From sequence record LC788710.1: DNA of 64,000 bases, one strand, 5' to 3'. Made by a program: the position numbers and the translations under genes. Source of the stretch: Escherichia coli phage Wa28. The notes beneath the pieces are model-generated. The model had not been told where the DNA came from, ran no database searches, and saw nothing but the letters and a program-made list of their open reading frames with translations. Below, piece after piece: positions 8,833-22,217 of this stretch. Within the stretch, counting starts at the first letter, position 1. Each line of letters begins with the position of its first letter.

Positions 8833-8908
8833 TGGTAGTTAGTAGTGGATTTGAACCACTGTAGTCGCTCCGTATGAAGGAGGTGCATAACCACTCTGCC
8901 AACTAACT
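8833..8908 (-). tRNA. tRNA-Met (anticodon CAT), manual call
   Basis: GTTCAAATCC T-arm, perfect 7-bp acceptor stem, encoded CCA, anticodon loop TTCATAC. Confidence 0.6.
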
Positions 8909-8914
8909 ATAATT

Positions 8915-8990
8915 TGGTACTCCGACTTGGGATCGAACCAAGATTTGACGATTATCGGTCGCCTGTTCTAACCGTTTGAACTATCGGAGC
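8915..8990 (-). tRNA. tRNA-Ile (anticodon GAT), manual call
   Basis: GGTTCGATCC T-arm, acceptor pairing, CCA end, anticodon loop CCGATAA. Confidence 0.6.
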
Positions 8991-8991
8991 A

Positions 8992-9285
8992 TTACATCAT
9001 TTCGTCTAAGTAAGAAGTATACTGGTATTTAGCTTCTCCAGTTTTATCTACTTCGACTTCTGTTCTAGGTACTTTTCGTACCAGACCGTGAATCATCTTG
9101 TACTGAATAGACTTAGATGGTTCGTGATCTTTTGGAAATACTTGTTTAACCGTTACTACTTTGAAGCCTTCACGAGGTGTTAGCACAACAACTTGATCAC
9201 CTTCTTTTATTTTCCAAGACTCAGGAAATTCGTAAGTGTAGCGTTGACCACCCGTTTGGAACACGACAGAAAGATAACGTTTCAT
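8992..9285 (-). CDS. hypothetical protein
   Basis: ORF track 97 aa; promoter module upstream. Confidence 0.5.
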   Translation of the reverse strand: MKRYLSVVFQTGGQRYTYEFPESWKIKEGDQVVVLTPREGFKVVTVKQVFPKDHEPSKSIQYKMIHGLVRKVPRTEVEVDKTGEAKYQYTSYLDEMM

Positions 9286-9315
9286 TTGGTTTCCCTCTCA
9301 TTAATTTATGTAAAT

Positions 9316-9344
9316 ATTATAACAAGAAATAAGAGAGAAGGCAA
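9316..9344 (-). promoter_or_regulatory. early promoter (-35 TTGCCT, -10 TATAAT)
   Basis: Conserved promoter module, reverse complement. Confidence 0.6.
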
Positions 9345-9359
9345 ATGAATTTTTAAATT

Positions 9360-9434
9360 TGGTGCTCCCACCAGGAATCGAACCCGGTTCAGATGCTTAC
9401 AAGGCAACTGCATCGCCAGCAATGCTTTAGGAGC
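9360..9434 (-). tRNA. tRNA-Thr (anticodon TGT), manual call
   Basis: GGTTCGATTCC T-arm, acceptor pairing with one G-U, CCA end. Confidence 0.55.
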
Positions 9435-9601
9435 AATAAACCCGTTATTTCAACGGAATTTCTTTTTCAAATACAGGAGACTTATCAGACATTACTGTCA
9501 TAGCCAACTGCTGTAGAAATTCGAATGAGAGTTTTAAACGTTCTTCACCCAACTCAACCTCAACACACTTCATTTGCTTATCAACCTTTAGCTTTAGATT
9601 A

Positions 9602-9823
9602 TCAGCCCTCTTCGGGTTCTCTTTGCTCAGCTATTGCTAGCCAGTCTGGTAAAAGAAACTTAGTACGAAATTCTTCATATGTTTCTTCTGGATGAAAGCT
9701 ATAGCCTTGCTTTTCATCATTTAATAAAACCGAACCGTCTTCCTGTTCATAAGCTCGGTATGTTTCACCAATAATTAAAACTCGTCTATTGGGGTTTTTA
9801 TTACGAAACTCAAAAACGTCCAT
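9602..9823 (-). CDS. hypothetical small protein
   Basis: ORF track 73 aa. Confidence 0.4.
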   Translation of the reverse strand: MDVFEFRNKNPNRRVLIIGETYRAYEQEDGSVLLNDEKQGYSFHPEETYEEFRTKFLLPDWLAIAEQREPEEG

Positions 9824-9838
9824 AACGTTTCCTTAAGT

Positions 9839-9913
9839 TGGTGCGGGATACGAGAGTCGAACTCGTGTCTACTGGTTGGAAGCCAGTTATTCTAGCCACT
9901 GAACTAATCACGC
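9839..9913 (-). tRNA. tRNA-Gly (anticodon TCC), manual call
   Basis: GAGTTCGACTC T-arm, CCA end, anticodon loop CTTCCAA. Confidence 0.55.
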
Positions 9914-9919
9914 ATAAAT

Positions 9920-9995
9920 TGGCTGGAGAAGGAGGAATCGAACCTACCATTAACGGAGTCAAAGGCCGTTGTGCTAACCGTTACACTACTCTCCA
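9920..9995 (-). tRNA. tRNA-Gln (anticodon TTG), manual call
   Basis: U1-A72 and discriminator G as in bacterial tRNA-Gln; loop CTTTGAC. Confidence 0.55.
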
Positions 9996-10001
9996 AGTAT
10001 T

Positions 10002-10077
10002 TGGCTGGGATGCCACGGATCGAACGTGGAACCTTCGGAGTCAGAGGCCGACGATCTGCCAATTGATCTACATCCCA
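10002..10077 (-). tRNA. tRNA-Gln (anticodon CTG), manual call
   Basis: U1-A72, discriminator G, loop CTCTGAC. Confidence 0.55.
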
Positions 10078-10084
10078 ATAATTT

Positions 10085-10285
10085 TTATTCTACAGGAACC
10101 GTGGCAATTGGATCTGGTTCTTCTAGACGTTTACCATTATGGTCAACACGAATAATACCACAACCTTCACAGATTACAACAGCACCATAGCCTTCTTTAA
10201 CTTCGGCTTCTGTAATCAGACCAGAAAGATCACCAGTATCTTTGCCCCACATATCGATAGAGCATTCTTTGCAGAAATCAGCCAT
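10085..10285 (-). CDS. hypothetical Cys-rich small protein
   Basis: 66 aa; CKEC...CEGC. Confidence 0.4.
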   Translation of the reverse strand: MADFCKECSIDMWGKDTGDLSGLITEAEVKEGYGAVVICEGCGIIRVDHNGKRLEEPDPIATVPVE

Positions 10286-10309
10286 ATTTTAGTTCCTGTA
10301 TAAGTTAAT

Positions 10310-10384
10310 TGGTGCATCCTCAGGGAATCGAACCCCGATCGTAAAGTTCGTAGCTTTACATTCTTTCCGTTGAAATAAGGACGC
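10310..10384 (-). tRNA. tRNA-Arg (anticodon ACG), manual call
   Basis: GGTTCGATTCCC T-arm, anticodon stem-loop GTAAAG-CTACGAA-CTTTAC. Confidence 0.55.
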
Positions 10385-10389
10385 ATATT

Positions 10390-10465
10390 TGGGGTGGCTA
10401 GTGGAATTCGAATCCACATAGGCCTGATTCACAATCAGGATCATTAACCAATTATGATATAGCCA
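10390..10465 (-). tRNA. tRNA-His (anticodon GTG), manual call
   Basis: Discriminator C, loop TTGTGAA, GGATTCGAATTCC T-arm. Confidence 0.6.
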
Positions 10466-10469
10466 CAAT

Positions 10470-10847
10470 TGAATACTATTAGGGGATGATCAGTCCTCCA
10501 TTTGGCCGTCTAAGGTACCAAAGTTAGTCATTCTGCGCACAGGTTTTTCTCCTGATTCTTTATTGCGAATGCTCTCTAATAATACTCAATTGTGGCGGCT
10601 CTCCGAAACTCTTCTACTCTAGCCTTAGCAGCTTACTCCCGAACGCATGTCGGGAAAGTCTTACTAAGAACATCAAATAGCACCGTTACACTTTGAGCCA
10701 TTAATGTATCAAGAAGCAGAAGGACTTGAACCTTCACGAGATAGACCATTTATCTCAGCCTCGTTTTCGGGTATCTTATGAGGAGTGGATGTTCCCCTTA
10801 CGCCCTTTAGGAAGCCCCGTCTACCGATTCCGGCATACTTCAAGATT
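10470..10847 (-). other. ORF-free segment inside tRNA cluster with T-arm-like motif; candidate degenerate tRNAs or small RNAs
   Basis: No ORF of 60 aa or more on the transcribed strand; GAAGGTTCAAGTCCTTC motif (reverse complement near 10720) without an obvious acceptor partner. Confidence 0.3.
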
Positions 10848-10937
10848 TGGCAGAAGATAATGGAGTCGAACCATCACCGTATCACTACAGCGGGCCGGTT
10901 TTCAAGACCGGTTACGTACCACTACGTCCTATCTTCT
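10848..10937 (-). tRNA. tRNA-Ser (anticodon TGA), class II, manual call
   Basis: Long variable arm, anticodon stem-loop CCGGT-CTTGAAA-ACCGG, CCA end. Confidence 0.55.
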
Positions 10938-11164
10938 AGTATTTGTTCTACTTCTTTTCGAAGATCTTCTGGATTATCATGATAGGTTGTTTGCCATACA
11001 TAAATAACTCCAGTATCACATGCTTTATCAAATATTTCTCGCTCAGGAAGTTTCATGCCCATTGCGTACTTGATATGAAACTCTAAAGCTTGCTTACTAG
11101 GGAATGTATGACGCAAGAAAAACTTATCATTAACTAAATCCAACATCATAATCTTGACTTTCAT
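10922..11164 (-). CDS. hypothetical protein
   Basis: ORF track 80 aa; 3' end overlaps the called tRNA 5' end. Confidence 0.4.
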   Translation of the reverse strand: MKVKIMMLDLVNDKFFLRHTFPSKQALEFHIKYAMGMKLPEREIFDKACDTGVIYVWQTTYHDNPEDLRKEVEQILEDRT

Positions 11165-11185
11165 TTATATTCCCTATTAGTTGTT

Positions 11186-11278
11186 TGGCGGAAGAAGAGA
11201 GATTCGAACTCTCAAGCCTGCTTTAACAAGTCAGCCACTTTCCAAGCGGTTTTCGTCACCTAATCGATTTGCTCTTCC
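11186..11278 (-). tRNA. tRNA-Ser (anticodon GGA?), class II, manual call
   Basis: GAGTTCGAATCTC T-arm, long variable region, loop TTGGAAA. Confidence 0.45.
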
Positions 11279-11452
11279 GTAGATCTCAGGATTAAATCAT
11301 AAACTTCATTAGCAGATACTGGAAGTATGAGATTATACATCTTTTGGTCATACCTCTGACCATACTCTATAAACACATACTCTTTAGTTAATGTATTAAC
11401 AGCTAACCAGATATCAGTTATAGGAGTTTTCATCATGAGTTAATCCAATGTT

Positions 11453-11533
11453 TGGTAGGGATGGAGGGACTCGAACCCACACCCGAAGACTAGAACCTAA
11501 ATCTAGCGCGTCTGCCAATTTCGCCACATCCCC
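11453..11533 (-). tRNA. tRNA-Leu (anticodon TAG), manual call
   Basis: Anticodon stem-loop CTAGA-TTTAGGT-TCTAG, extended variable arm, CCA end. Confidence 0.55.
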
Positions 11534-11540
11534 ATTTTAT

Positions 11541-11759
11541 TTAGTTAGAAATAAATAGTAACCCTGCAACAATGGAACCTATGCCACTGAATACCATTAT
11601 CAGCATAGCTTCTAAGCTGATAAAGCGGACGTTATATGGAGCGCCCCAAGAATAATCAGTAAAGAAAGTTTTCTTTTCTTTAGCTAAATCTTTAATAGTT
11701 CTAAAATAGATAGCTAGTGCTAAAGCTACAAGAACTACAGAGGCTGCTAAGAATACCAT
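11541..11759 (-). CDS. small membrane protein
   Basis: 72 aa, two hydrophobic helices. Confidence 0.45.
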   Translation of the reverse strand: MVFLAASVVLVALALAIYFRTIKDLAKEKKTFFTDYSWGAPYNVRFISLEAMLIMVFSGIGSIVAGLLFISN

Positions 11760-11778
11760 ATTATTTCCTTAATTTGTT

Positions 11779-11854
11779 TGGTGGAGTCACTCAGAATTGA
11801 ACTGAGTTCCACTGCTTGCAAGGCAGTAAGTTTAACCAAATAACCTATGACCCC
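11779..11854 (-). tRNA. tRNA-Ala (anticodon TGC), manual call
   Basis: G3-U70 pair, anticodon stem-loop ACTGC-CTTGCAA-GCAGT, CCA end. Confidence 0.6.
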
Positions 11855-11859
11855 GAATT

Positions 11860-11938
11860 TGGTGGAGAATAAGAGATTCGAACTCTTCTGATATCCTCGG
11901 TGCAAGCGAGGTGTCCACTCCAAGCAGACCCATTCCCC
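11860..11938 (-). tRNA. second tRNA-Ala-like gene (anticodon TGC), slightly longer, manual call
   Basis: G3-U70, anticodon stem-loop CCTCG-CTTGCAC-CGAGG; D-arm not resolved. Confidence 0.45.
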
Positions 11939-12200
11939 AAAATCTTTAAGTTTACTAAGGCTATTAGCTCGGTGTGCGTATTACCCTCAGACATTAGCCA
12001 GTAGAGGATAACCGCTCTTCACAAACCCGATACACTATTCAGTTGCCGCTGAATCTAGTGGACTAATCTAGAACTTATTGCAAAGTATCCCCCGCCATTA
12101 AGGGTCTACTTGCAATTGTGCTTTTTGGCAGCCAGTCCTAGGTCGAGCTAATACCTTAGTGAACTTTGATGAGGATTTCTCCTCATCAATTTATATAAAT

Positions 12201-12229
12201 ATTATAACAAGAAATTAAGCATCAAGCAA
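12201..12229 (-). promoter_or_regulatory. early promoter (-35 TTGCTT, -10 TATAAT) driving downstream noncoding leader and tRNAs
   Basis: Conserved module; overlaps stop of upstream ORF. Confidence 0.6.
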
Positions 12230-12581
12230 GTACATTTTTAGCGATTTCTTGTATTTCCTTAACGTCACTAACGAAAAGGTAATCAGAGCTTCCAGAGTGC
12301 ATACTCTGCATAACCACACCATCCTCTGGTGCATCTTCTTTCAAAGTAATACCTAACCAGAACTCGGCAAAACTAGGTGTTACCTCACCTTGACTTGCCT
12401 TGAATACATCGGCTTCTGTGATCTCCTGACCAGTAGAGAGTCCCATGTACGGTACGTTCAGATCAATATCTTTGTAAAACTCAGCTAGATCTTGTTCGAA
12501 GTCCCAACCTTTAGAGATAGCGAACTCCATTGTTACATGACCGAAATAGCCTTGAACCTTGCTTGATAATTGCATTTGCAA
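12222..12581 (-). CDS. hypothetical protein
   Basis: ORF track 119 aa. Confidence 0.5.
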   Translation of the reverse strand: MQMQLSSKVQGYFGHVTMEFAISKGWDFEQDLAEFYKDIDLNVPYMGLSTGQEITEADVFKASQGEVTPSFAEFWLGITLKEDAPEDGVVMQSMHSGSSDYLFVSDVKEIQEIAKNVLA

Positions 12582-12600
12582 TTCCTTATTTTGAGTTAAT

Positions 12601-12674
12601 TGGTACTCGGTGATAGAATCGAACTATCGCAACCGCCGTGTAAAGACGGGGTTCTCCCATTAAACTAACCGAGC
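12601..12674 (-). tRNA. tRNA with atypical anticodon arm (identity undetermined), manual call
   Basis: T-arm GTTCGATTC and acceptor pairing present; anticodon hairpin CCGT-CTTTAC-ACGG appears to have a 6-nt loop. Confidence 0.4.
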
Positions 12675-12678
12675 AATT

Positions 12679-12756
12679 TGGTGGATTGCCTGGGATTCGA
12701 ACCCAGAACTGACGGATTAAAGGTCCGCTACTCTTATCCGGTTGAGCTAGCAATCC
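12679..12756 (-). tRNA. tRNA-Lys (anticodon TTT?), manual call
   Basis: GGGTTCGAATCCC T-arm, loop CCTTTAA (C at position 33 is unusual). Confidence 0.5.
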
Positions 12757-13220
12757 AATTTTTCTACTAATAATTTAAAAGCATCTAGTACAGGTACTTC
12801 AAACCATTCCCCGGATACTCTGTAGTCTTTGAGAAGATTATGTAACTCTTTCTCCGTACGTCTTTTATCTGACGAAAATCTGAAATGGTGTAGCTTGTAG
12901 TCTCTATTAGGTGAATAGGTTTGATAACTTGCTAACCTCTCATTTACATCTATAGTCATACCTATTTTATACATGCCTGGCCATGCGGGATTACCGATTA
13001 CATATACAAAACCTTCCGTTATAGGTATTTTATGTTCTCTTTTGTATTTTAAGAGATTTAAAGCTGCCATTCGATAACAGAATTTAAATTCTGAAGTTTT
13101 TAACTTACCCTCTTTACCAGAAATTTCATTATATTTGCTCATATAAGCTCTTATAAGCTTATCATCTATAATAAAATTATCAGGAAGGTTTAAGGCAGCT
13201 AAAACTTTATTAATTAGCAT
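12747..13220 (-). CDS. T5orf172-domain protein (GIY-YIG-like putative homing endonuclease)
   Basis: 157 aa; motif FVYVIGNPAWPGMYKIGMTIDVNERLASYQ. Confidence 0.6.
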   Translation of the reverse strand: MLINKVLAALNLPDNFIIDDKLIRAYMSKYNEISGKEGKLKTSEFKFCYRMAALNLLKYKREHKIPITEGFVYVIGNPAWPGMYKIGMTIDVNERLASYQTYSPNRDYKLHHFRFSSDKRRTEKELHNLLKDYRVSGEWFEVPVLDAFKLLVEKLDC

Positions 13221-13374
13221 AAACTTCCTTAATAGAGTAGACTTTCAAGTAAGGATGATTAATACCAAATTCCGCCATTACTTCATTTTCATCTTTACCA
13301 TAATGGGCTAGTGGATACTTCTTACGATCTTTACTAGAACGTAAATCACTTACTTTTAAACGAAATAATTTCAT
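13210..13374 (-). CDS. small ORF (54 aa) missed by ORF track
   Basis: ATG at 13372-13374 with AAGGA SD; ends overlapping start of downstream gene. Confidence 0.35.
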   Translation of the reverse strand: MKLFRLKVSDLRSSKDRKKYPLAHYGKDENEVMAEFGINHPYLKVYSIKEVYAN

Positions 13375-13395
13375 TTCGAAATCCTTCTATTAAAT

Positions 13396-13472
13396 TGGAA
13401 GCGGGTGCAGGAATCGAACCTACCTCTTTCTAGCTTATGAGACTAGCGATCTCTACCAGAGATCTAACCCGC
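13396..13472 (-). tRNA. tRNA with CAT anticodon (Met/fMet candidate), manual call
   Basis: Loop CTCATAA; apparent mismatch at acceptor pair 1:72, which suggests initiator-like. Confidence 0.5.
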
Positions 13473-13479
13473 AATTGTT

Positions 13480-13557
13480 TGGTCTCCGTGGGAGGATTTG
13501 AACCCCCGACCCTATCGCCCCAAACGAAACGCTCTAGCCAAACTGAGCTACACGGAG
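13480..13557 (-). tRNA. tRNA-Pro (anticodon TGG), manual call
   Basis: GGGGGTTCAAATCCTCC T-arm, loop TTTGGGG, CCA end. Confidence 0.55.
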
Positions 13558-13589
13558 AATATTCTTTGTTAACTCACTTTATAAAATAT

Positions 13590-13618
13590 ATTATACAGAG
13601 AATTAAGCTAAATAGCAA
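13590..13618 (-). promoter_or_regulatory. early promoter (-35 TTGCTA, -10 TATAAT) upstream of tRNA-Pro and the CAT tRNA
   Basis: Conserved module. Confidence 0.6.
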
Positions 13619-13872
13619 CTACATTTTTTAATAAATTTACTTATTGCGTAGGCCACCTGGAGGGTTCAAGCCCCACGGCTGACAAAGAAGTTTGCGAGAC
13701 TTCTCTTAAACGCCAGAATAGACCCGCCGATCTATCGGAACCTACTCAATAAGTAAACTTTCGTTTACCTACACCTACCTGGTCGGGAGGATTTTCAGCG
13801 ACTAGAACCGGCCGGAAACTCATCGCCTTGTTTATCTAGGAGTCCGTTCTCTAGGAAGCAGAAACCTAAATT

Positions 13873-13946
13873 TGGTGCGGTCGGAGGGAATCGAACCCTC
13901 AACTTCTGGTTGGCAACCAAAAATTATACCTTTTAACTACGAACGC
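13873..13946 (-). tRNA. tRNA-Gly (anticodon GCC), manual call
   Basis: GAGGGTTCGATTCCCTC T-arm, loop TTGCCAA. Confidence 0.55.
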
Positions 13947-14159
13947 ATAATAAGTCAATCTAGGCAGGACTTGAACCTGCTATCACTTGTGCGGATTTAC
14001 GAGAACCATTCTTTCACTCGAATCGAACGAGCTTCTACCCTCGGCAAGCTGGTGTCCCCTCTCCACCACGCTAGAATGATAATTAGTGCCTGCTCCTTTG
14101 AATCAAGAAGTCCACCCCGGACTTTGGGTCTTTGCAGTACATCACGCTGCTCTGATGTT
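13947..14159 (-). other. ORF-free segment with two T-arm-like motifs; candidate degenerate tRNAs or small RNAs
   Basis: GCAGGTTCAAGTCCTGC and CTCGTTCGATTCGAG (reverse complement) without clean acceptor partners. Confidence 0.3.
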
Positions 14160-14236
14160 TGGTACACCCACTAGGACTTGAACCTAGAACCTACCGCTTA
14201 AGAGGCGGTAGCTCTAACCAATTGAGCTATGGATGT
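14160..14236 (-). tRNA. tRNA-Lys (anticodon CTT?), manual call
   Basis: CTAGGTTCAAGTCCTAG T-arm, anticodon stem-loop ACCGC-CTCTTAA-GCGGT. Confidence 0.5.
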
Positions 14237-14242
14237 ATAATT

Positions 14243-14317
14243 TGGCGGTACTAAGGGTAATCGAAACCCTACCTCTCCCGTGACAGGGGAGTATCCTAAC
14301 CGTTAGACTATAGTACC
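14243..14317 (-). tRNA. tRNA-Asp (anticodon GTC), manual call
   Basis: Discriminator G, anticodon stem-loop CTCCC-CTGTCAC-GGGAG. Confidence 0.6.
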
Positions 14318-14889
14318 TTTAACTTTTTAAGTTCTTTAGGATTGCCTCCTAAAGAAGTGTATCTTTTACGCAACCCATTATCTGAATAACTTAACTTTCT
14401 CCCTGCACCTGACCAGCCTAGCTCTCTTACTGTAACCTCGATTATTTCTTTAGTTATAGAGATATCTTTTGGTTTATGTGAAGAGCACTCCTGACATTTT
14501 TCAGCTTTTAAAGAAATAGCTTTACCACAATCCTTACAACAATTATCATGGTTTAGTTTACTAAATCCTTTATCTTTTAAAGTCTTTTCTAGATGCTGCT
14601 CTTTTGTGAGCACTTGTAAGTTATTAAGACCCCAATAAGTAATGTCTGTGTTAATATGGTCAACTTCTAGTTCAGAGTCTAGACTTGGTAATTTCTTAAA
14701 TGCACATGCTAAAATCCTATGTACACCGGTATTTCTCTGTTGACCATTTTTATGGAGACGTATAGATAAGTATCCGTAATTACTGGTTATTTGGGTTAGT
14801 ATTTTGTTTGATTTGATACTAAATACTAACCCATCCAAACTTACTAAGTACTCCTCAAACCCTGGAATGGGTAAGGATATTCCGTGCAT
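14308..14889 (-). CDS. HNH homing endonuclease
   Basis: 193 aa; GYLSIRL...VHRILACAF...EVDHINTDITYWGLNNLQVLT, C-terminal Cys cluster. Confidence 0.65.
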   Translation of the reverse strand: MHGISLPIPGFEEYLVSLDGLVFSIKSNKILTQITSNYGYLSIRLHKNGQQRNTGVHRILACAFKKLPSLDSELEVDHINTDITYWGLNNLQVLTKEQHLEKTLKDKGFSKLNHDNCCKDCGKAISLKAEKCQECSSHKPKDISITKEIIEVTVRELGWSGAGRKLSYSDNGLRKRYTSLGGNPKELKKLKVL

Positions 14890-14892
14890 AAT

Positions 14893-15078
14893 TTACTCAG
14901 TTTTGAGTTTTTCGATAGCTTCCTCAACCTCTTTTAGAGCTTCACGACGCTCTACTTGACCTTGAAGTTCTTCAAGAAGTTCAGCTTTCAGAGCCTTAAT
15001 AATATTACCACGAACCTTAATATTATTAATCAGATTATCACGATCAGCTTCTAGTCGAGCAATTGCACGAGTTGTCAT
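14893..15078 (-). CDS. small coiled-coil protein
   Basis: ORF track 61 aa. Confidence 0.4.
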   Translation of the reverse strand: MTTRAIARLEADRDNLINNIKVRGNIIKALKAELLEELQGQVERREALKEVEEAIEKLKTE

Positions 15079-15181
15079 ATCTATTTCCTCAGTTGTTAAT
15101 GAAAAATGGTATCTGTGACTGAATTCGATATCAGCAATGATAGCTGGTTGGCTACCGGTTTACTTAACTCTACACAGAATA

Positions 15182-15264
15182 TGGCGGGCCGTGTAGGATT
15201 CGAACCTACGTTGTCTTTCGACATGGATTAACAGTCCACCGCCAAACCGCTTGGCTAACGACCC
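15182..15264 (-). tRNA. tRNA, anticodon read as GTT (Asn?) but with long variable region; manual call
   Basis: Perfect T-arm GTAGGTTCGAATCCTAC, acceptor pairing, CCA end, loop CTGTTAA, 13-nt variable region. Confidence 0.45.
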
Positions 15265-15271
15265 TAAAATT

Positions 15272-15347
15272 TGGACGACCGCATGAGATTCGAACTCACA
15301 TAAGGAGGTTTTGCAGGCCTCCGCCTAAGCCATTCAGCCAACGGTCG
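15272..15347 (-). tRNA. tRNA-Cys (anticodon GCA), manual call
   Basis: Anticodon stem-loop GGAGG-(C)CTGCAAA(A)-CCTCC; GAGTTCGAATCTC T-arm. Confidence 0.5.
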
Positions 15348-15525
15348 ATTTATCTTGCTTTTCGAGATTAGTAAACTCTAGATCTTTAGAATGTCCTATA
15401 GATCTAGCATAATAGCCATCTCCAGCATCGTAGCCTGATTTACCGCACTCACACATCTTAAACTCTCTATAATGAGTGAAAATATGTTCAGAACCACAAC
15501 ACTTAAATTTAACTAACATTTTCAT
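15334..15525 (-). CDS. small Cys-rich protein
   Basis: 63 aa; CCGSEH...CECGKSGYD. Confidence 0.4.
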   Translation of the reverse strand: MKMLVKFKCCGSEHIFTHYREFKMCECGKSGYDAGDGYYARSIGHSKDLEFTNLEKQDKSTVG

Positions 15526-15764
15526 TTAACACGCTCCGGTAAATCTTCGAGTTTATATTGAGTAGCCACATTAGCAGCATCTAGTAACAAACCCATATGT
15601 TTAAGAATCCTAGTGATAGCCTCGCCTTCTGCTTCTTCTACAAAAGTGCGTAGTTGAATGAAGTCAATACCCCCATCCATACCAGAGAAAATGTTTAGTA
15701 AGCGAAGCATTACCAGCTTACGTTCTTTCAATTCTTGTTCTGTCATGTTGCTTCTCCAGTTCAA
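15522..15764 (-). CDS. hypothetical protein
   Basis: ORF track 80 aa; promoter module upstream. Confidence 0.45.
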   Translation of the reverse strand: MNWRSNMTEQELKERKLVMLRLLNIFSGMDGGIDFIQLRTFVEEAEGEAITRILKHMGLLLDAANVATQYKLEDLPERVK

Positions 15765-15775
15765 TTTATGTAATA

Positions 15776-15804
15776 ATTATACAGAACTTTAAGCGGTTAA
15801 GCAA
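15776..15804 (-). promoter_or_regulatory. early promoter (-35 TTGCTT, -10 TATAAT)
   Basis: Conserved module. Confidence 0.6.
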
Positions 15805-16075
15805 CTACATTTTTTAAGAATTTGATGCCTTTCTTTTTCTTCTTATATTTCCACGTTAACGGGTTCTGTCGATTATGAACGCTTGAGATCTTTGTCTCGT
15901 CAAAGTTCTTCAAAACCATGTAATCACAGGCCAACTGTTCTAGTGGGATGTGATCTCCATCAAAAGCATAAACATAAGGCTGTTGACTAGCACGATAATG
16001 ATAGACTTTGTTAATTCTGCGTTTCAGTGACTTATCCGCACAGTAAATAAAGAAGTTTTCAGGATGCATCAGCAT
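15797..16075 (-). CDS. hypothetical protein
   Basis: ORF track 92 aa. Confidence 0.4.
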   Translation of the reverse strand: MLMHPENFFIYCADKSLKRRINKVYHYRASQQPYVYAFDGDHIPLEQLACDYMVLKNFDETKISSVHNRQNPLTWKYKKKKKGIKFLKNVVA

Positions 16076-16086
16076 CTCCTTAAAAT

Positions 16087-16161
16087 TGGTGCACCCTGTT
16101 CGTATCGAACGAACCTCTCAAGCTCTTCAGGCAAGCGCTAATCCATCTCAGCTAAAGGTGC
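16087..16161 (-). tRNA. tRNA, anticodon not resolved by eye
   Basis: GTTCGTATCGAAC T-arm with 5-bp stem, acceptor pairing, CCA end. Confidence 0.4.
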
Positions 16162-16167
16162 AAATAT

Positions 16168-16243
16168 TGGCAAACCTACTAGGACTCGAACCTAGACCGT
16201 ACGGTTTTGGAGACCGACATGCTGTCCAGTAACACTCTAGGAA
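16168..16243 (-). tRNA. tRNA-Trp (anticodon CCA?), manual call
   Basis: CTAGGTTCGAGTCCTAG T-arm, loop CTCCAAA; acceptor has 2 mismatches. Confidence 0.4.
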
Positions 16244-16252
16244 TGCAGAAAT

Positions 16253-16329
16253 TGGCGTCCTGTGCGGGGATCGAACCCGCAAACCCCACCTTGAAAGGGT
16301 GGTGACTTTACCAGTTTGTCTAACAGGAC
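16253..16329 (-). tRNA. tRNA-Glu (anticodon TTC), manual call
   Basis: Discriminator G, anticodon stem-loop CCACC-CTTTCAA-GGTGG, GCGGGTTCGATCCCCGC T-arm. Confidence 0.6.
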
Positions 16330-16811
16330 TTAAATTGTTTATTGGATAGATTGTTAAACTCGGAAAGTATGTCGTCTACACTTCTGTCTAACACTACCCA
16401 TTCATTAAGCCGTTCAGGAAAGCTATTATGAAGCATTTTCTCCGCTTCTCTAGCATTAAACCAAAATGACCAATGTATTAACTTATAATCACGTAAGGGA
16501 GAATAAGTTTGGTAATTTCCTAATCTTGTTTTAGGATCAGAAGACATACCAATTTTTACATAGTTATCCCACGCTGGGTTAGTTATTGCATAAATAAAAC
16601 CACAGCTGGATTTTTCTCCAATACTTTTGTTATACTTGATAAAAGATAGGGCAGATAACTTCAAGCTATATCGACGATTACTATCGCGACCAAAGTTAGC
16701 TGTACCAAATGTGAGGCTTTCTAATATTAGATCTTTGTTTATATCGGCGGGTGAACCCAACTGTATAATACCTCTATTTGCAGCTTCTTGAATTATCCGA
16801 TCAATATACAT
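16320..16811 (-). CDS. T5orf172-domain protein (GIY-YIG-like), paralog of 12747-13220
   Basis: 163 aa; GFIYAITNPAWDNYVKIGMSSDPKTRLGNYQTYSP. Confidence 0.6.
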   Translation of the reverse strand: MYIDRIIQEAANRGIIQLGSPADINKDLILESLTFGTANFGRDSNRRYSLKLSALSFIKYNKSIGEKSSCGFIYAITNPAWDNYVKIGMSSDPKTRLGNYQTYSPLRDYKLIHWSFWFNAREAEKMLHNSFPERLNEWVVLDRSVDDILSEFNNLSNKQFKSC

Positions 16812-16829
16812 ATCCTTTACCTTTAATTT

Positions 16830-16917
16830 GGTGGGCGTTAATGGAGTCGAACCACTCGAGTCGCAATGACCAGGGATTTACAATCCCCTCCGCTACCACT
16901 TACGGAATAAACGCCCA
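16830..16917 (-). tRNA. tRNA-Tyr (anticodon GTA), class II, manual call
   Basis: Anticodon stem-loop GGGGA-TTGTAAA-TCCCT, long variable arm, CCA end. Confidence 0.6.
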
Positions 16918-17045
16918 TATTTAGAAGTATTCAAATACTTGTTTAAACACTTTTAAATATGTTTTCCAAATTAGATATCTATTATATCAAGTTTTGAAGG
17001 ACTGAGCAAGTCAAATTTTAAAGAACTTGCTCAGTGCTACATCAG

Positions 17046-17321
17046 TTACTCGAAGCTAGGAGTGACGCTCAGTTTGAATGGAAGCTCGAACACTTCTTCA
17101 TAATCATCATTGAGCGTAATTACACGACCTTCTAGCTTAGTCATGGTGATTTCGATATCAGCCCTTGCATCAGGAGCCATACCAGCTTCCACACATTTAG
17201 CTTTAACTTCCGGCAGAAGTTCTACGTCGTAGAAATAAAGCCATTCAATCTCACCTTCCCAGCCACCCCAGGATTTACAAACAGCACTTTCAACACCAGT
17301 TGCAGTAACACGTTTTGACAT
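17046..17321 (-). CDS. hypothetical protein
   Basis: ORF track 91 aa; promoter upstream. Confidence 0.45.
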   Translation of the reverse strand: MSKRVTATGVESAVCKSWGGWEGEIEWLYFYDVELLPEVKAKCVEAGMAPDARADIEITMTKLEGRVITLNDDYEEVFELPFKLSVTPSFE

Positions 17322-17351
17322 TCGTTAACTCCTTCATCAATTTATATAACT

Positions 17352-17381
17352 ATTATAACAGAAATCTTAAGTAAAAAGCAA
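17352..17381 (-). promoter_or_regulatory. early promoter (-35 TTGCTT, -10 TATAAT)
   Basis: Conserved module. Confidence 0.6.
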
Positions 17382-17411
17382 GTACATTTTTAAAATTTCT
17401 GCTTGGAGGAG

Positions 17412-17684
17412 TTAAACTCCTGATTCTTCAGCCAGATCAAGCCCAACCAACGTGATTGCCATAATAGCCGCGCCATGTTCTTTCTCCCCTAGCTCTTTGG
17501 CTTGAGCGAGAATATTGAGGAATTGCTTTTGAAAATCTGCAACTTCTTCTGTCATGCCTGCTTCAGCAATAATTCCTTTAAGCATAAAGCGTTGTGCCGT
17601 AATTTCAGGATTAGCCATTTGTTTTCTCCAGTTATTTAGAATGTAAGCCAAACTTAGGATCATAGCGATCGTAAGTCGTACCAT
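17412..17684 (-). CDS. hypothetical protein
   Basis: ORF track 90 aa. Confidence 0.45.
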   Translation of the reverse strand: MVRLTIAMILSLAYILNNWRKQMANPEITAQRFMLKGIIAEAGMTEEVADFQKQFLNILAQAKELGEKEHGAAIMAITLVGLDLAEESGV

Positions 17685-17769
17685 TAGTTGAAGCCTTAAT
17701 GCTATGGAAACGACAGTACATAAATTTACGTAGTGCTTTCTTAATAGCTTTCATTTTATTTCCTTAATT

Positions 17770-17846
17770 TGGTAGGGGTGGTGGGATTCGAACCCACAAA
17801 ACCTGAATTTTAAGTCCAGTACCTATGCCAATTCGATTACACCCCC
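17770..17846 (-). tRNA. tRNA with anticodon read as TAA but class I length (Leu-UAA? or misread Phe); manual call
   Basis: GTGGGTTCGAATCCCAC T-arm, anticodon stem-loop CTGGA-CTTAAAA-TTCAG, CCA end. Confidence 0.45.
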
Positions 17847-17854
17847 ATGTAATC

Positions 17855-18208
17855 TTAGCGAATCTCTAAACCCTGGAAATATCGAGGGAATGGAGAGCCA
17901 ACTTCAAAATTGATGCCCCAATTAAGTTCAACGAGTTCAGATTTATTAAGATCTAGGCCATTACCTTCAAAGATATAGCCGTAAACCGCAGGAAACATAG
18001 CTGCTAGATCTTCCATATCGGAATGAGCATTGTGTTCTTCACGGAACTGCTCAAACTCTTCAAAGAACTTTTCTAGGAAGAACTCAGGTACGATGAACGT
18101 TACCACATCAGTAGAATCATCGGTACGATACACCGTAGCTTGGAACAAGCCAACACCTAAAAGGTTTATTGCCGGAGTAGTAAAAATATCCATCTTAGCC
18201 TCGCTCAA
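17855..18208 (-). CDS. hypothetical acidic protein
   Basis: ORF track 117 aa. Confidence 0.45.
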   Translation of the reverse strand: MSEAKMDIFTTPAINLLGVGLFQATVYRTDDSTDVVTFIVPEFFLEKFFEEFEQFREEHNAHSDMEDLAAMFPAVYGYIFEGNGLDLNKSELVELNWGINFEVGSPFPRYFQGLEIR

Positions 18209-18380
18209 TGTCTAGACAAATTGCATATTCAGGGTTGATACCAGTACCTTTACATGTAGGACATTCCCATTCTCTACAGAAAATACCCCCCGGTTCTGCA
18301 TCATCCTGCCTACCACCACCATGACAGTCCTTACACCGACATTCTTCTAATGCTTTCTTCATTTCATAGAATCTAGACAT
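18195..18380 (-). CDS. small zinc-ribbon-like protein
   Basis: 61 aa; CKDCHGGG...CPTCKG. Confidence 0.4.
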   Translation of the reverse strand: MSRFYEMKKALEECRCKDCHGGGRQDDAEPGGIFCREWECPTCKGTGINPEYAICLDIERG

Positions 18381-18397
18381 ATAGTCTCCTGGTTAAT

Positions 18398-18475
18398 TGG
18401 TGGCTCCCGGAGGATTCGAACCTACCTACCTTTCGCTTATGAGGCGACGGCTCATACCAAATGAGCTTGAGAACC
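18398..18475 (-). tRNA. tRNA with CAT anticodon (Met or Ile2/lysidine candidate), manual call
   Basis: D-arm GCTC-ATTTGGTAT-GAGC, loop CTCATAA, acceptor GGTTCTC/GGGAGCC with G-U pairs. Confidence 0.5.
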
Positions 18476-18480
18476 AAATT

Positions 18481-18574
18481 TGGAGGAAGATGCCAGACTC
18501 GAACTGGCACACCGTGTCTCCACAGCTACTGGCTGTTTAGCAAACAGCTCCCTTACCTTTAGGGTTAATCTTCC
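18481..18574 (-). tRNA. tRNA-Ser (anticodon GCT), class II, manual call
   Basis: Anticodon stem-loop GCTGT-TTGCTAA-ACAGC, long variable arm, CCA end. Confidence 0.55.
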
Positions 18575-18588
18575 GAATTTATGAATAT

Positions 18589-18617
18589 ATTATACAGAAA
18601 ATTTCGGCATTAAGCAA
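18589..18617 (-). promoter_or_regulatory. early promoter immediately upstream of tRNA-Ser(GCT)
   Basis: Conserved module (-35 TTGCTT, -10 TATAAT). Confidence 0.6.
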
Positions 18618-18625
18618 GTGAAATT

Positions 18626-18922
18626 TTACTGAACACTGCACTGATACACTTGTTTGATACGTGTCACTGACTTCTTAGTTGGATTGATAGAAGAACCTTG
18701 CCACCAACGTGACTCTGAGCTAAGAACAGCGCCAGGAACAGCCTGCTCTTTTGGCAGAACAATATCAAAACACTGTTCACCCATATTATCTTTAATGTGT
18801 GACCAAATATCCAAAGTAAATCGTTCTAACTTATTACAAACCTGAACTTGACAAAGTTCCTGTTGCGGAGCAGCAAATACAGAAGTAGATACTAGAGCCA
18901 ATGCAAGTACAATGCGTTTCAT
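18626..18922 (-). CDS. secreted Cys-containing protein (signal peptide)
   Basis: 98 aa; MKRIVLALALVSTSVFAAP. Confidence 0.5.
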   Translation of the reverse strand: MKRIVLALALVSTSVFAAPQQELCQVQVCNKLERFTLDIWSHIKDNMGEQCFDIVLPKEQAVPGAVLSSESRWWQGSSINPTKKSVTRIKQVYQCSVQ

Positions 18923-18952
18923 GTTTGATTCCTCTCTCGAATTTATAAATAT

Positions 18953-18981
18953 ATTATACAGAAATTTTCTATATTAAGCAA
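18953..18981 (-). promoter_or_regulatory. early promoter
   Basis: Conserved module. Confidence 0.6.
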
Positions 18982-19028
18982 GTGAAAATTTCTGTATAAT
19001 AGCCCTCGCTTAGAGGGCTATAACTACT

Positions 19029-19721
19029 TTATTTGTTAACGCGTACAAAGTATCCTTTATAAGCTCCAAGAATAGAGTTGCCTAAGAATACTAGCCACAT
19101 TGCTAGGATTGCGTAAGATGCACCTGTAGATTGAGCAGTTACAAGCCAAATGTACACAGTACCAATGTTAATAGCAATCCAAATCAGCCATTGTTCAGCA
19201 TATTGTTTGACCATAAGCCACATAGCAATCACACTACCAACCGCAGTAAATGCATCCAACATTGGGAATGGATCAGCCGTAGTAGCAAGGAAACTACCAT
19301 AACCTAACGTGGCTACTGCTAAAATCCCTAGAGTCAGCAAAGCTTGAGCTTTTGTCAGAACTTTAGTTGGAACATCCGGTAGATTACTTGGCTTATTTTT
19401 ATGCCACAAGTACATTCCGTAGAACTGCATAGGAACGTAGTACAATAGGTTTAGTGCTGCGTTACCATAAAGATCAGCATTTAGAGCTGTAATACCGTAG
19501 GTCAGAACACCTACCAAACCCCAGACATAGTTGGAAACACGTCCTTTTGCAACCAGAATAACACAAACCACATTGGTTATTGCAGTAGCCCAATCTAGAG
19601 CTGTACCATTATAGTTTGCTAAACTAATGAAGACAACCGCTATGAACAGCCACAGATATTCCAGAGGTTTCCAGTTTTTAAAGTCATTTACGAGATAGTT
19701 AGTCATATTAAAACTCTCCAA
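19029..19721 (-). CDS. pnuC: nicotinamide riboside transporter PnuC-like
   Basis: 230 aa polytopic membrane protein with PnuC-like Trp/Tyr-rich helices (WKPLEYLW..., MQFYGMYLW). Confidence 0.7.
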   Translation of the reverse strand: MESFNMTNYLVNDFKNWKPLEYLWLFIAVVFISLANYNGTALDWATAITNVVCVILVAKGRVSNYVWGLVGVLTYGITALNADLYGNAALNLLYYVPMQFYGMYLWHKNKPSNLPDVPTKVLTKAQALLTLGILAVATLGYGSFLATTADPFPMLDAFTAVGSVIAMWLMVKQYAEQWLIWIAINIGTVYIWLVTAQSTGASYAILAMWLVFLGNSILGAYKGYFVRVNK

Positions 19722-20781: not shown

Positions 20782-20793
20782 ATTTATAAATAT

Positions 20794-20822
20794 ATTATAC
20801 AGAGAATTTAGCGTTCAAGCAA
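20794..20822 (-). promoter_or_regulatory. early promoter upstream of NadR-like gene
   Basis: Conserved module. Confidence 0.6.
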
Positions 20823-20969
20823 TCGAATTTTTAAACTTTTTAGTGGAAAAATCTCAAGGCATTTAGTGGTAGCACGTTGTTGCTACAATAATAGTATATG
20901 ATTCTAAAGAATTAAAGAATTAAATACTAAAGACCTTAGTTGAATAACTTATGGGCTTTTCTTTTGCCT

Positions 20970-21009
20970 TAAATACAGAAAAGCCCGCGCTCTCGGAGGA
21001 AACGCGGGC
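20970..21009 (-). terminator. rho-independent terminator (tandem hairpins)
   Basis: GCCCGCG...CGCGGGC hairpin followed on minus strand by TTTTCTGTATTT. Confidence 0.55.
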
Positions 21010-21034
21010 TTGGTTCGAAGATTACGTGTAACTA

Positions 21035-21979: not shown

Positions 21980-21990
21980 ATATTTCCTTA

Positions 21991-22191: not shown

Positions 22192-22217
22192 TTTATTTTC
22201 CTAGCAGTTAATAAAAT

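What the first reader, a model, noticed from the sequence alone, without database searches (positions are those of the whole stretch)
10470..10847. ~380 bp ORF-free stretch inside the tRNA cluster with an orphan T-arm motif
It lies between tRNA-His and tRNA-Ser with no ORF, and contains GAAGGTTCAAGTCCTTC (reverse complement around 10717-10735) without a matching acceptor partner. It could hold degenerate tRNAs, tRNA fragments or small stable RNAs.
Basis: seen in the sequence. Interest (0 to 1): 0.4.

Follow-up and report, generated by a model that had tools for sequence, protein, structure and literature searches.

The report
Three small phage RNAs, one tRNA-shaped
The gap between two tRNA genes in this T5-like phage holds three folded small-RNA genes in a row, counterparts of the "stable RNAs of unknown function" long recorded for phages T5 and BF23, so it is real and conserved but not a new kind of element.

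Summary
Window 10467-10847 is a 381-nt gap between tRNA-Ser and tRNA-His with no canonical tRNA, no Rfam match and no conserved ORF. The window is 100% identical to E. coli phage Shin27, a T5-like Epseptimavirus.

One detail is wrong: the "orphan" T-arm does have an acceptor partner. The minus strand carries three back-to-back RNA modules.

- **RNA1 (about 10842-10712):** a complete class-II, tRNA-Leu-like cloverleaf. A ~47-nt covarying helical extension replaces the anticodon loop. It lacks the encoded CCA that all 29 tRNA genes here have.
- **RNA I (10699-10593):** a 107-nt rod-shaped RNA with an acceptor-like end stem, a discriminator G and an encoded CCA.
- **RNA III slot (10588-10467):** a 122-nt RNA closed by a 13-bp terminal stem. 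Related phages carry at least five different interiors behind the same 12-13-bp stem.

The curated BF23 record AJ604530 annotates the same slot as RNA1 ("tRNA-like RNA"), RNAI and RNAIII ("stable RNA with unknown functions"). Covariation is strong: 98% paired with 15 compensatory pairs for RNA1, and 96% paired with 8 for RNA I.

The function is still unknown. My best inference is that these are tRNA-pathway-processed mimic or decoy RNAs. I rate this a new member of a known kind, of moderate interest.

The parts
10712..10842 (-). RNA1: tRNA-shaped RNA built on a class-II tRNA-Leu-like scaffold, with no anticodon loop and no encoded CCA. Counterpart of BF23 'RNA1, tRNA-like RNA with unknown functions'. 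Leader is 10847-10843; conserved trailer UUGAUA... is 10711-10700.
   Evidence: 81% identical to BF23 RNA1. CM R1 scores 167.7 bits. 33 pairs are 98.4% paired, 15 of them with compensatory changes. RNAalifold independently gives the same helices.
10836..10841 (-). RNA1 acceptor stem, 5' strand (GAAGUA). It pairs with 10718-10713 (UGCUUC). Position 1:72 is a U.U mismatch.
   Evidence: 5 of 6 pairs change on both sides among 17 sequences.
10817..10833 (-). RNA1 D arm: CCG-GAAUCGGUAGA-CGG. U8, A14, G18, G19 and A21 are invariant. The D loop is identical to that of E. coli tRNA-Leu(UAA) leuZ.
   Evidence: Invariant columns in A2. CM alignment to leuZ.
10758..10815 (-). RNA1 anticodon-type stem GCUUC/GAGGC (10815-10811 with 10762-10758). 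It encloses a 48-nt extension with an inner helix GGG/CCC (10805-10803 with 10771-10769) and a hairpin (10798-10793 with 10784-10779). The 8-nt hairpin loop ACAUCCAC (10792-10785) is nearly invariant.
   Evidence: Stem: 3 of 5 pairs compensatory. Inner helix: 2 of 3. Hairpin: 4 of 6. The position equivalent to U33 varies U/G/C.
10738..10756 (-). RNA1 long variable arm: GAGAU-AAAUGGUCU-AUCUC, with an invariant 9-nt loop.
   Evidence: A-U changes to U-A and C-G at one pair; 100% paired.
10719..10735 (-). RNA1 T arm: GAAGG-UUCAAGU-CCUUC.
   Evidence: U54, U55, C56 and A58 are invariant.
10593..10699 (-). RNA I: 107-nt rod-like RNA. The end stem GGCUC/GAGCC is followed by discriminator G and an encoded CCA (10596-10593). 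Counterpart of BF23 'RNAI, stable RNA with unknown functions'.
   Evidence: 91% identical to BF23 RNAI over 107 nt. CM R2 scores 136 bits. 27 pairs are 95.6% paired, 8 compensatory, against 35-51% paired in slid controls. The MFE fold of the single sequence gives the same rod.
10589..10592 (-). 4-nt spacer CAAU between the CCA of RNA I and the third RNA.
   Evidence: CAAU in 27 of 28 loci and CAAG in DU_PP_V.
10467..10588 (-). RNA in the RNA III slot (122 nt). A 13-bp terminal stem (10588-10576 with 10482-10470) is followed by a 3-nt tail AUU (10469-10467) that abuts G-1 of tRNA-His. The interior is unrelated to T5/BF23 RNA III. It has a 3'-proximal hairpin with loop CUGAUCA (10493-10487).
   Evidence: Same position as BF23 RNAIII, but only the ends align. 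The terminal stem is 12-13 bp in most variants. z = -2.17. This interior occurs in 54 phage records, all >=95% identical and none annotated as RNA. The CUGAUCA hairpin is shared with Pectobacterium phage DU_PP_V, with a flipped closing pair.

Best explanation
The gap is a cassette of three small non-coding RNA genes on the minus strand. They lie inside the phage's early tRNA operon and correspond to the T5/BF23 stable RNAs RNA1, RNA I and RNA III.

**Shown here**
- Each module is a separate folded unit whose helices covary.
- RNA1 is a tRNA-Leu-type L-shape. It keeps every elbow nucleotide and a Leu-type D loop. A long helical arm ending in a nearly invariant loop replaces the anticodon loop, so it cannot decode. 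It lacks the encoded CCA.
- RNA I is a rod with an acceptor-like end and an encoded GCCA.
- The third RNA keeps only a 12-13-bp terminal helix. That is the length of a stacked acceptor plus T stem. Its interior is swapped between lineages.

**Inferred**
- The array is transcribed together with the flanking tRNAs.
- The host tRNA-processing machinery cuts it out. RNase P would cut at each U(-1) junction, and the 3' end of the third RNA would be made by the RNase P cut at tRNA-His G-1. RNA I would be maintained through its CCA end.

**Function (inferred, about 0.25-0.3)**
- The RNAs act as tRNA mimics that bind tRNA-recognising host or phage proteins. LeuRS, processing or modification enzymes, and tRNA-targeting defence nucleases are candidates.
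- RNA1 would be a non-decoding decoy or adaptor that presents its conserved loops.
- The variable third RNA would be a fast-evolving sponge or processing module.

The confidence value below refers to the identity and architecture, not to the function.
For: **Identity**
- The window is 100% identical to the T5-like phage Shin27.
- BF23 record AJ604530 annotates RNA1 (tRNA-like), RNAI and RNAIII (stable RNAs) in the same place, directly upstream of tRNA-His.
- Identity to BF23 is 81% for RNA1 and 91% for RNA I.
- The same order RNA1, RNA I, RNA III, tRNA-His is found in Markadamsvirinae and in Pectobacterium phage DU_PP_V of the Mccorquodalevirinae.
- RNA1 is also present in Sugarlandvirus.

**Structure**
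- RNA1 is 98.4% paired with 15 compensatory pairs, against 41-55% paired in slid controls. RNAalifold agrees.
- RNA I is 95.6% paired with 8 compensatory pairs. The MFE fold gives the same rod.
- The third RNA keeps a 12-13-bp terminal stem around five different interiors.

**tRNA-Leu affinity**
- After RNA1 itself, the best R1 hits are tRNA-Leu genes: the phage's own at 39 and 32 bits, T4's at 32 bits and E. coli leuZ at 35.9 bits.
- The leuZ alignment shares an identical D loop and T loop once a 41-nt insert is skipped.

**Processing logic**
- All 29 tRNA genes encode CCA. RNA I does too, and RNA1 does not.
- Spacers are 3-6 nt with U at -1.
- There is no convincing internal promoter or terminator. 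The only terminator-like site is the T arm itself.

**Not coding**
- ORFs are not conserved.
- There is a 1-nt indel inside RNA1.

**Modularity**
- Some phages carry an extra ~115-nt module between RNA1 and RNA I.
Against: - No expression data exist for this phage. "Stable RNA" rests on the BF23 record's annotation of homologues. Its RNA1 label may be sequence-based.
- Single-sequence folding z-scores are weak.
- The RNA I alignment was fitted to the model, which inflates the paired percentage.
- The D stem of RNA1 is invariant, so it cannot be told apart from an alternative local hairpin.
- The T5 tRNA region is a deletion hotspot and dispensable in the laboratory (PMC12483538, citing Glukhov 2018). 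Any function is therefore conditional.
- The discriminator position is U, not the A73 that E. coli LeuRS needs (textbook knowledge, not tested). That argues against leucylation.
- No target or partner has been identified, and the decoy function is pure inference.
Confidence: 0.85

Rival explanations
1. The stretch is evolutionary debris: decayed tRNA pseudogenes and spacer sequence. It may be transcribed, but it has no function of its own.
For: RNA1 is clearly tRNA-derived and cannot decode. The third module's interior is replaced freely and can shrink to a 29-nt hairpin. The tRNA region of T5 tolerates large deletions (PMC12483538). Other odd tRNA-like genes sit nearby at 11186-11278 and 22825-22896.
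Against: Debris does not accumulate compensatory changes. RNA1 has 15 and RNA I has 8 doubly changed pairs with 96-98% pairing. The loops ACAUCCAC and AAAUGGUCU and all elbow nucleotides stay invariant or nearly so across three subfamily-level groups. RNA I keeps an encoded CCA.
Confidence: 0.1
2. The modules, especially the third, are only cis-acting processing scaffolds. Their helices exist to position RNase P, RNase E or exonucleases so that neighbouring tRNAs such as tRNA-His with its G-1 are matured correctly. The excised pieces are by-products.
For: The only conserved feature of the third module is a 12-13-bp terminal helix with a 3-nt tail abutting tRNA-His. Junction sequences resemble tRNA leaders. 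The interior is not conserved.
Against: Other tRNAs in the same cluster are separated by only 5-6 nt and need no scaffold. RNA1 and RNA I have conserved loops and internal helices far beyond what end-processing needs. The BF23 homologues are recorded as stable species.
Confidence: 0.2
3. The stretch encodes small proteins, as several GenBank records annotate (PMBT22, gmork_122, DU_PP_V p042).
For: Short ORFs of 34-44 aa exist here. Other annotators called 31-68-aa hypothetical proteins over the homologous DNA.
Against: No ORF is conserved in frame and extent across homologues. The best candidates span module boundaries that are broken by insertions in other phages. Substitutions follow base-pairing rather than codon structure. 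A 1-nt indel lies inside RNA1.
Confidence: 0.03
4. RNA1 is a real tRNA-Leu interrupted by an intron, or it is a tmRNA-like molecule. After processing it would take part in translation.
For: The insert sits at the anticodon-loop position of a tRNA-Leu scaffold. tRNA-Leu(UAA) is the classic host of a bacterial group I intron (general knowledge). LeuRS does not read the anticodon (general knowledge).
Against: The insert is only ~41-48 nt, far below group I size, and Rfam gives no intron hit. The flanking residues that would form the anticodon loop vary (CUAAA, CGAAU, CCAAU, UAACG), so no conserved anticodon could be rebuilt. ARAGORN and Rfam find no tmRNA, and there is no tag reading frame. No CCA is encoded, and the discriminator is U.
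Confidence: 0.03

Closest known systems
Bacteriophage BF23/T5 small RNAs RNA1 ('tRNA-like RNA'), RNA I and RNA III ('stable RNA with unknown functions'), GenBank AJ604530
   Same: Same genomic slot, downstream of tRNA-Ser1 and directly upstream of tRNA-His. RNA1 is 81% and RNA I 91% identical. RNA I has the same length (107 nt) and the same GCCA end. The third RNA has the same UGA...UCA-AUU ends.
   Different: The interior of the third RNA is unrelated: 122 nt here against 106 nt in BF23, with no BLAST match. In BF23 a small ORF separates tRNA-Ser from RNA1, whereas here RNA1 follows the tRNA after 5 nt.
Class-II tRNA-Leu (E. coli leuZ tRNA-Leu(UAA), phage T5-group and T4 tRNA-Leu)
   Same: Acceptor, 3-bp D stem, D loop GGAAUCGGUAGAC, 5-bp anticodon stem, long variable arm and T loop UUCAAGU. 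tRNA-Leu genes are the best non-self hits of the RNA1 model at 32-39 bits.
   Different: No 7-nt anticodon loop; a ~47-nt structured extension takes its place. The variable arm is larger with an invariant loop. There is a U.U at 1:72, a discriminator U and no encoded CCA. tRNA finders do not detect it.
Phage T4 species 1 and species 2 RNAs (RNAC, RNAD)
   Same: Two ~120-140-nt stable RNAs embedded in a phage tRNA cluster, with roles still unknown (PMC3014915, PMC9697503). rnaC carries a canonical T arm near its 3' end, and the neighbouring rnaD ends in ...CACC(A). This parallels RNA1 and RNA I.
   Different: No demonstrable homology. The RNA1 model gives only 10.6 bits on rnaC. The gene order is reversed, and the phage family is different.
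3'ETS-leuZ and other spacer-derived small RNAs of tRNA operons
   Same: A stable RNA released from a tRNA precursor by the tRNA-processing machinery. It is annotated next to leuZ in E. coli. This is a precedent for a functional spacer RNA, which acts as a sponge according to the literature I recall.
   Different: No sequence relation. No base-pairing target of the phage RNAs was found or tested.
tmRNA and bacterial Y-RNA-like YrlA (other RNAs with tRNA-like domains)
   Same: They carry a tRNA-like elbow or acceptor module without a decoding anticodon.
   Different: No tag ORF or pseudoknots, and ARAGORN finds no tmRNA. Rfam models for these families give no hit. The RNA1 ends lie at the acceptor stem like a tRNA, unlike YrlA.

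Membership tests
Canonical tRNA | Acceptor stem paired with the strand directly 3' of the T stem | tested here: met
   6 Watson-Crick or G.U pairs plus a U.U at 1:72. 5 of 6 pairs are compensatory.
Canonical tRNA | Elbow nucleotides U8, A14, G18, G19, A21, U54, U55, C56 and A58, and a T arm of 5 bp with a 7-nt loop | tested here: met
   All are invariant in 17 of 17 sequences. The T arm is 100% paired.
Canonical tRNA | 7-nt anticodon loop with U33 and a defined anticodon | tested here: not met
   A 48-nt structured insert lies between the strands of the anticodon stem. The residue at the U33 position varies U/G/C.
Canonical tRNA | 3' CCA, which every tRNA gene of this phage encodes | tested here: not met
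   29 of 29 tRNA genes end in CCA. RNA1 continues with UUGAUA.
Canonical tRNA | Recognition by tRNA gene finders or the Rfam tRNA model | tested here: not met
   ARAGORN finds none. Rfam finds none at E<=10.
T5/BF23 stable RNA cassette (RNA1, RNA I, RNA III) | Synteny: an array immediately upstream of tRNA-His and downstream of tRNA-Ser(UGA) | tested here: met
T5/BF23 stable RNA cassette (RNA1, RNA I, RNA III) | Sequence homology of RNA1 and RNA I | tested here: met
   81% over 145 nt and 91% over 107 nt. CM scores are 167.7 and 136 bits.
T5/BF23 stable RNA cassette (RNA1, RNA I, RNA III) | Sequence homology of RNA III | tested here: not met
   Only the terminal-stem ends align, with no BLAST hit. 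It is the same slot with a different interior.
T5/BF23 stable RNA cassette (RNA1, RNA I, RNA III) | Accumulation as discrete stable RNAs in infected cells | not testable with these tools
   Rests on the BF23 annotation. There are no expression data for this phage.
tmRNA | tRNA-like domain plus tag reading frame and pseudoknots, detectable by ARAGORN or Rfam | tested here: not met
Group I intron-containing tRNA-Leu | Intron with a conserved catalytic core (over 200 nt) that interrupts a reconstructible anticodon loop | tested here: not met
   The insert is 41-48 nt. Rfam gives no intron hit. The flanking loop residues are not conserved.
T4 RNAC/RNAD | Homology to T4 rnaC or rnaD | tested here: inconclusive
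   R1 gives 10.6 bits (E 0.014) on rnaC, driven by the T arm. The architectural analogy was seen only by eye.

The most novel reading that the evidence does not exclude
RNA1 is an anticodon-less tRNA-Leu mimic kept across Demerecviridae. It would bind a specific tRNA-recognising protein through its intact elbow, Leu-type D loop and acceptor end. Candidates are LeuRS, a processing or modification enzyme, or a tRNA-targeting host defence nuclease. RNA1 would act as a decoy, inhibitor or adaptor, presenting its conserved ACAUCCAC and AAAUGGUCU loops. The neighbouring RNA III slot would be a rapidly exchanged cassette of sponge or decoy RNAs, each packaged behind a 12-13-bp tRNA-like processing handle. 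That would make the T5 tRNA region a counter-defence and host-takeover RNA arsenal and not only a codon-supply locus.
Probability: 0.2. Interest if true: 0.7.

Novelty: new member of a known kind. Interest (0 to 1): 0.4.

Why it matters
These RNAs have been listed as "stable RNA with unknown functions" for T5 and BF23 for decades. Even so, they are missing from Rfam and from almost all of the ~500 T5-like genome records that carry them. In several records they are overwritten by spurious hypothetical proteins.

The comparative structures worked out here give concrete, testable objects:
- an anticodon-less tRNA-Leu scaffold;
- a CCA-tailed rod;
- a swappable RNA behind a tRNA-length helix.

Phage tRNA clusters are now being re-read as counter-measures to tRNA-cleaving defence systems. 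If the RNAs prove to be decoys or regulators of tRNA-binding proteins, that would extend the idea from real tRNAs to tRNA mimics. If not, the practical gain is correct annotation and a candidate set of new RNA families.

Tried and rejected
- **tmRNA, including permuted forms:** ARAGORN and Rfam are negative, and there is no tag frame.
- **Intron-containing tRNA-Leu:** the insert is too small, there is no intron hit, and the loop flanks are not conserved.
- **Protein-coding ORFs:** they are not conserved.
- **14-nt pattern scan of viral contigs:** too unspecific, and it returned mostly chance hits.
- **Longer patterns:** they recovered only T5-like genomes.
- **Genome and metagenome scans followed by the CM:** only T5-like contigs are real, and the bacterial hits are chance.
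- **Plain pairwise alignment of RNA1 to the phage's class-II tRNAs:** uninformative. The CM comparison was needed.
- **MAFFT/RNAalifold on mixed RNA I types:** helices P3 and P4 were misaligned. I replaced this with a CM-guided alignment.
- **Homology to T4 rnaC:** only 10.6 bits.
- **Literature searches for functional work on T5 RNA I and RNA III:** nothing was found in the held library, and the Glukhov 2018 paper is not held.
- **Loop complementarity, by eye:** I compared the conserved RNA1 loops with RNA I, RNA III and rRNA. I found nothing beyond 3-7-nt matches expected by chance, and I make no claim from it.

Full report
**Context.** The window is a T5-like phage. A 701-nt query around the finding is 100% identical to E. 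coli phage Shin27 (Demerecviridae, Epseptimavirus) and over 98% identical to many Salmonella phages. ARAGORN finds 29 tRNA genes between 8.8 and 22.3 kb, all on the minus strand. The finding is the 381-nt gap, 10467-10847, between tRNA-Ser(UGA) at 10848-10937 and tRNA-His at 10390-10466.

**Checking the observation.**
- No tRNA or tmRNA is called in the gap.
- Rfam gives nothing at E<=1 when 15 kb are searched. At E<=10 on the gap alone it gives only a meaningless 6.9-bit lncRNA match.
- ORFs overlapping the gap are 44 aa or shorter.
- The T-arm motif is at 10735-10719 on the minus strand.

The observation therefore holds, except for the statement that the T-arm has no acceptor partner.

**What is annotated elsewhere.** BLAST of the gap finds 499 phage records, nearly all without annotation under the match. 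One curated record, the BF23 tRNA gene region AJ604530, is the exception. It places three features in this slot, followed directly by tRNA-His:
- RNA1, "tRNA-like RNA with unknown functions", 144 nt;
- RNAI, "stable RNA with unknown functions", 107 nt;
- RNAIII, "stable RNA with unknown functions", 106 nt.

The window aligns to BF23 RNA1 at 81% and to RNAI at 91%. The last 122 nt align only at their two ends.

**RNA1 (about 10842-10712).** I aligned 17 distinct homologues from Tequintavirus, Epseptimavirus, Pectobacterium phage DU_PP_V (Mccorquodalevirinae) and Klebsiella phage GZ8 (Sugarlandvirus). The alignment supports a complete class-II cloverleaf with these parts:
- acceptor stem GAAGUA/UGCUUC;
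- D arm CCG-GAAUCGGUAGA-CGG;
- a 5-bp anticodon-type stem GCUUC/GAGGC;
- a long variable arm GAGAU-AAAUGGUCU-AUCUC;
- T arm GAAGG-UUCAAGU-CCUUC.

The anticodon-type stem does not close a 7-nt loop. It encloses 48 nt that form an inner 3-bp helix and a 5-6-bp hairpin with the nearly invariant loop ACAUCCAC.

On my structure, 98.4% of cells are paired and 15 of 33 pairs change on both sides. Versions with the 3' partner slid by one to three columns are 41-55% paired with 0-4 such pairs. RNAalifold, run independently, predicts the same helices. The one exception is the invariant D region, which covariation cannot resolve.

All elbow nucleotides (U8, A14, G18, G19, A21, U54, U55, C56, A58) are invariant. 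The position equivalent to U33 varies.

A covariance model of RNA1 scores 167.7 bits here. Its next-best hits are tRNA-Leu genes:
- the phage's own, at 39 and 32 bits;
- T4 tRNA-Leu, at 32 bits;
- E. coli leuZ tRNA-Leu(UAA), at 35.9 bits.

In the leuZ alignment the D loop and T loop are identical and 41 nt are skipped at the anticodon loop. All 29 tRNA genes of the window encode CCA. RNA1 instead continues with the conserved trailer UUGAUA. RNA1 is thus a tRNA-Leu-derived, non-decoding tRNA mimic under strong structural selection.

**RNA I (10699-10593).** It begins GGCUC and ends GAGCC-G-CCA, which is an acceptor-like stem, a discriminator and an encoded CCA. Two sequence types exist, T5-type and gmork-type, and DU_PP_V has a third. 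MAFFT misaligned them. I therefore built a model from the T5-type with a hand-derived nested structure and aligned all homologues to it.

The RNA is one long irregular hairpin of 27 pairs in five stacked helices.
- 95.6% of cells are paired and 8 pairs are compensatory, against 35-51% paired in slid controls. The caveat is that the alignment was fitted to the model.
- The plain MFE fold of the window sequence gives the same rod.
- Conserved single-stranded segments include GUGUAACGGUGC, GUAA and GAGUUUC.
- No paralogue exists elsewhere in the window, and Sugarlandvirus lacks RNA I.

**RNA III slot (10588-10467).** After a CAAU spacer, every phage examined has an RNA ending 3 nt before G-1 of tRNA-His. 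In all but the 29-nt variant it starts UGA and ends UCA-AUU (CUU in DU_PP_V). Its interior comes in at least five versions of 29, 64, 107, 118-122 and 134 nt. The terminal helix is 12-13 bp in all of them except the 29-nt variant (6 bp) and one 134-nt sequence that has a single mismatch. Its sequence differs between versions.

Twelve base pairs is the length of a stacked acceptor plus T stem, which RNase P and other tRNA enzymes measure. That point is established knowledge, and I did not test it here.

The window's version occurs in 54 records, mostly Salmonella phages, all at least 95% identical. Its only diverged relative is in DU_PP_V. The two share the terminal stem and a 3'-proximal hairpin with loop CUGAUCA, in which the closing pair is flipped.

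**Modularity and context.**
- Some phages (Klebsiella phage 150049 and L121) carry an extra ~115-nt structured module between RNA1 and RNA I. BF23 has an ORF between tRNA-Ser and RNA1. The units therefore behave as cassettes.
- Junctions look like the 5-6-nt A/U-rich spacers between tRNAs, with U at -1.
- No convincing promoter or terminator lies inside the gap. The only terminator-like hit is the T arm itself.
- Pattern scans of viral, genome and metagenome collections, checked with the CM, find RNA1 only in T5-like contigs.

**Coding potential.** No ORF is preserved in frame and extent across homologues. The commonest one, 38 aa, crosses the RNA1/RNA I boundary and is broken wherever other modules are inserted. 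Hypothetical proteins annotated over this DNA in PMBT22, gmork and DU_PP_V are therefore probably spurious.

**Mechanism.**
- *Shown:* three independently folded, covarying RNA units, of which one is tRNA-shaped, one is CCA-tailed, and one has a tRNA-length terminal helix.
- *Inferred from the architecture and from knowledge of tRNA maturation:* co-transcription with the tRNA operon, release by RNase P at each junction, and stabilisation of RNA I through its CCA end.
- *Function:* it is unknown in the literature I could reach. The analogous T4 RNAs C and D are likewise described as being of unknown role (PMC3014915, PMC9697503). The T5 tRNA region is a deletion hotspot (PMC12483538), so any role is conditional.

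My best guess, at about 0.25-0.3, is tRNA mimicry towards a tRNA-binding protein. RNA1 keeps the parts that LeuRS and processing enzymes read and discards decoding. Its discriminator U argues against charging by LeuRS, though that rests on textbook identity rules I did not test.

The variable third RNA could be a sponge or decoy, or only a processing scaffold. The spacer-derived sRNA 3'ETS-leuZ, annotated next to leuZ in E. coli, is a precedent for a functional tRNA-operon spacer RNA.

**Verdict.** The feature is real and conserved. It is best filed as an unannotated member of the known T5/BF23 stable-RNA cassette, with a third-module variant that is not annotated as RNA in any record. It is not a new kind of system. 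Interest is moderate, because the function remains open and the structures make it testable.

Noticed in passing
window 12019-12153 (minus strand): Homologue (78% over 135 nt) of BF23 'RNA 2H', another 'stable RNA with unknown functions'. It is unannotated in Shin27. A perfect 10-bp hairpin lies just upstream at 12166-12189.
   Followed up: partly
window 11186-11278 (minus strand): tRNA-Ser(GGA)-like gene with an encoded CCA, 89% identical to BF23 tRNAS2. ARAGORN misses it, and it is far below threshold in Rfam (23.8 bits on the tRNA-Sec model). The T5 record flags its counterpart as a pseudogene. The annotated CDS Shin27_0870 overlaps its 5' end.
   Followed up: partly
window 22825-22896 (minus strand): Weak tRNA-like sequence, 29.3 bits, right at the Rfam tRNA threshold. 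It has a good T arm, a mismatched acceptor stem and no CCA. ARAGORN does not call it.
   Followed up: no
L129 742-862 (Klebsiella phage 150049) and L121: An extra ~115-nt hairpin-rich module sits between RNA1 and RNA I, giving four small RNAs in a row. It is unrelated in sequence to the other modules.
   Followed up: no
L126 385-1018 (Klebsiella phage GZ8, Sugarlandvirus): The RNA1 homologue (131 bits) has a completely different acceptor sequence. It lies in a ~630-nt ORF-free stretch after tRNA-Val. There is no RNA I, and several other strong hairpins flank it.
   Followed up: partly
L124 387-614; L128 499-705; L125 710-886: GenBank records of PMBT22, gmork and DU_PP_V annotate hypothetical proteins directly over RNA1, RNA I and RNA III. 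These are likely false gene calls.
   Followed up: partly
window 8833-22292: All 29 ARAGORN tRNA genes encode their 3' CCA and are followed by A-rich spacers. Adjacent genes are typically 5-6 nt apart.
   Followed up: yes
L178 2909-3172 (phage T4 rnaC and rnaD): T4 rnaC has a canonical T arm CCGGG-UUCGAAU-CCCGG 9 nt from its annotated 3' end. rnaD ends ...GCGCACC(A). The annotated rnaD boundaries look shifted by one base relative to the CCA.
   Followed up: no
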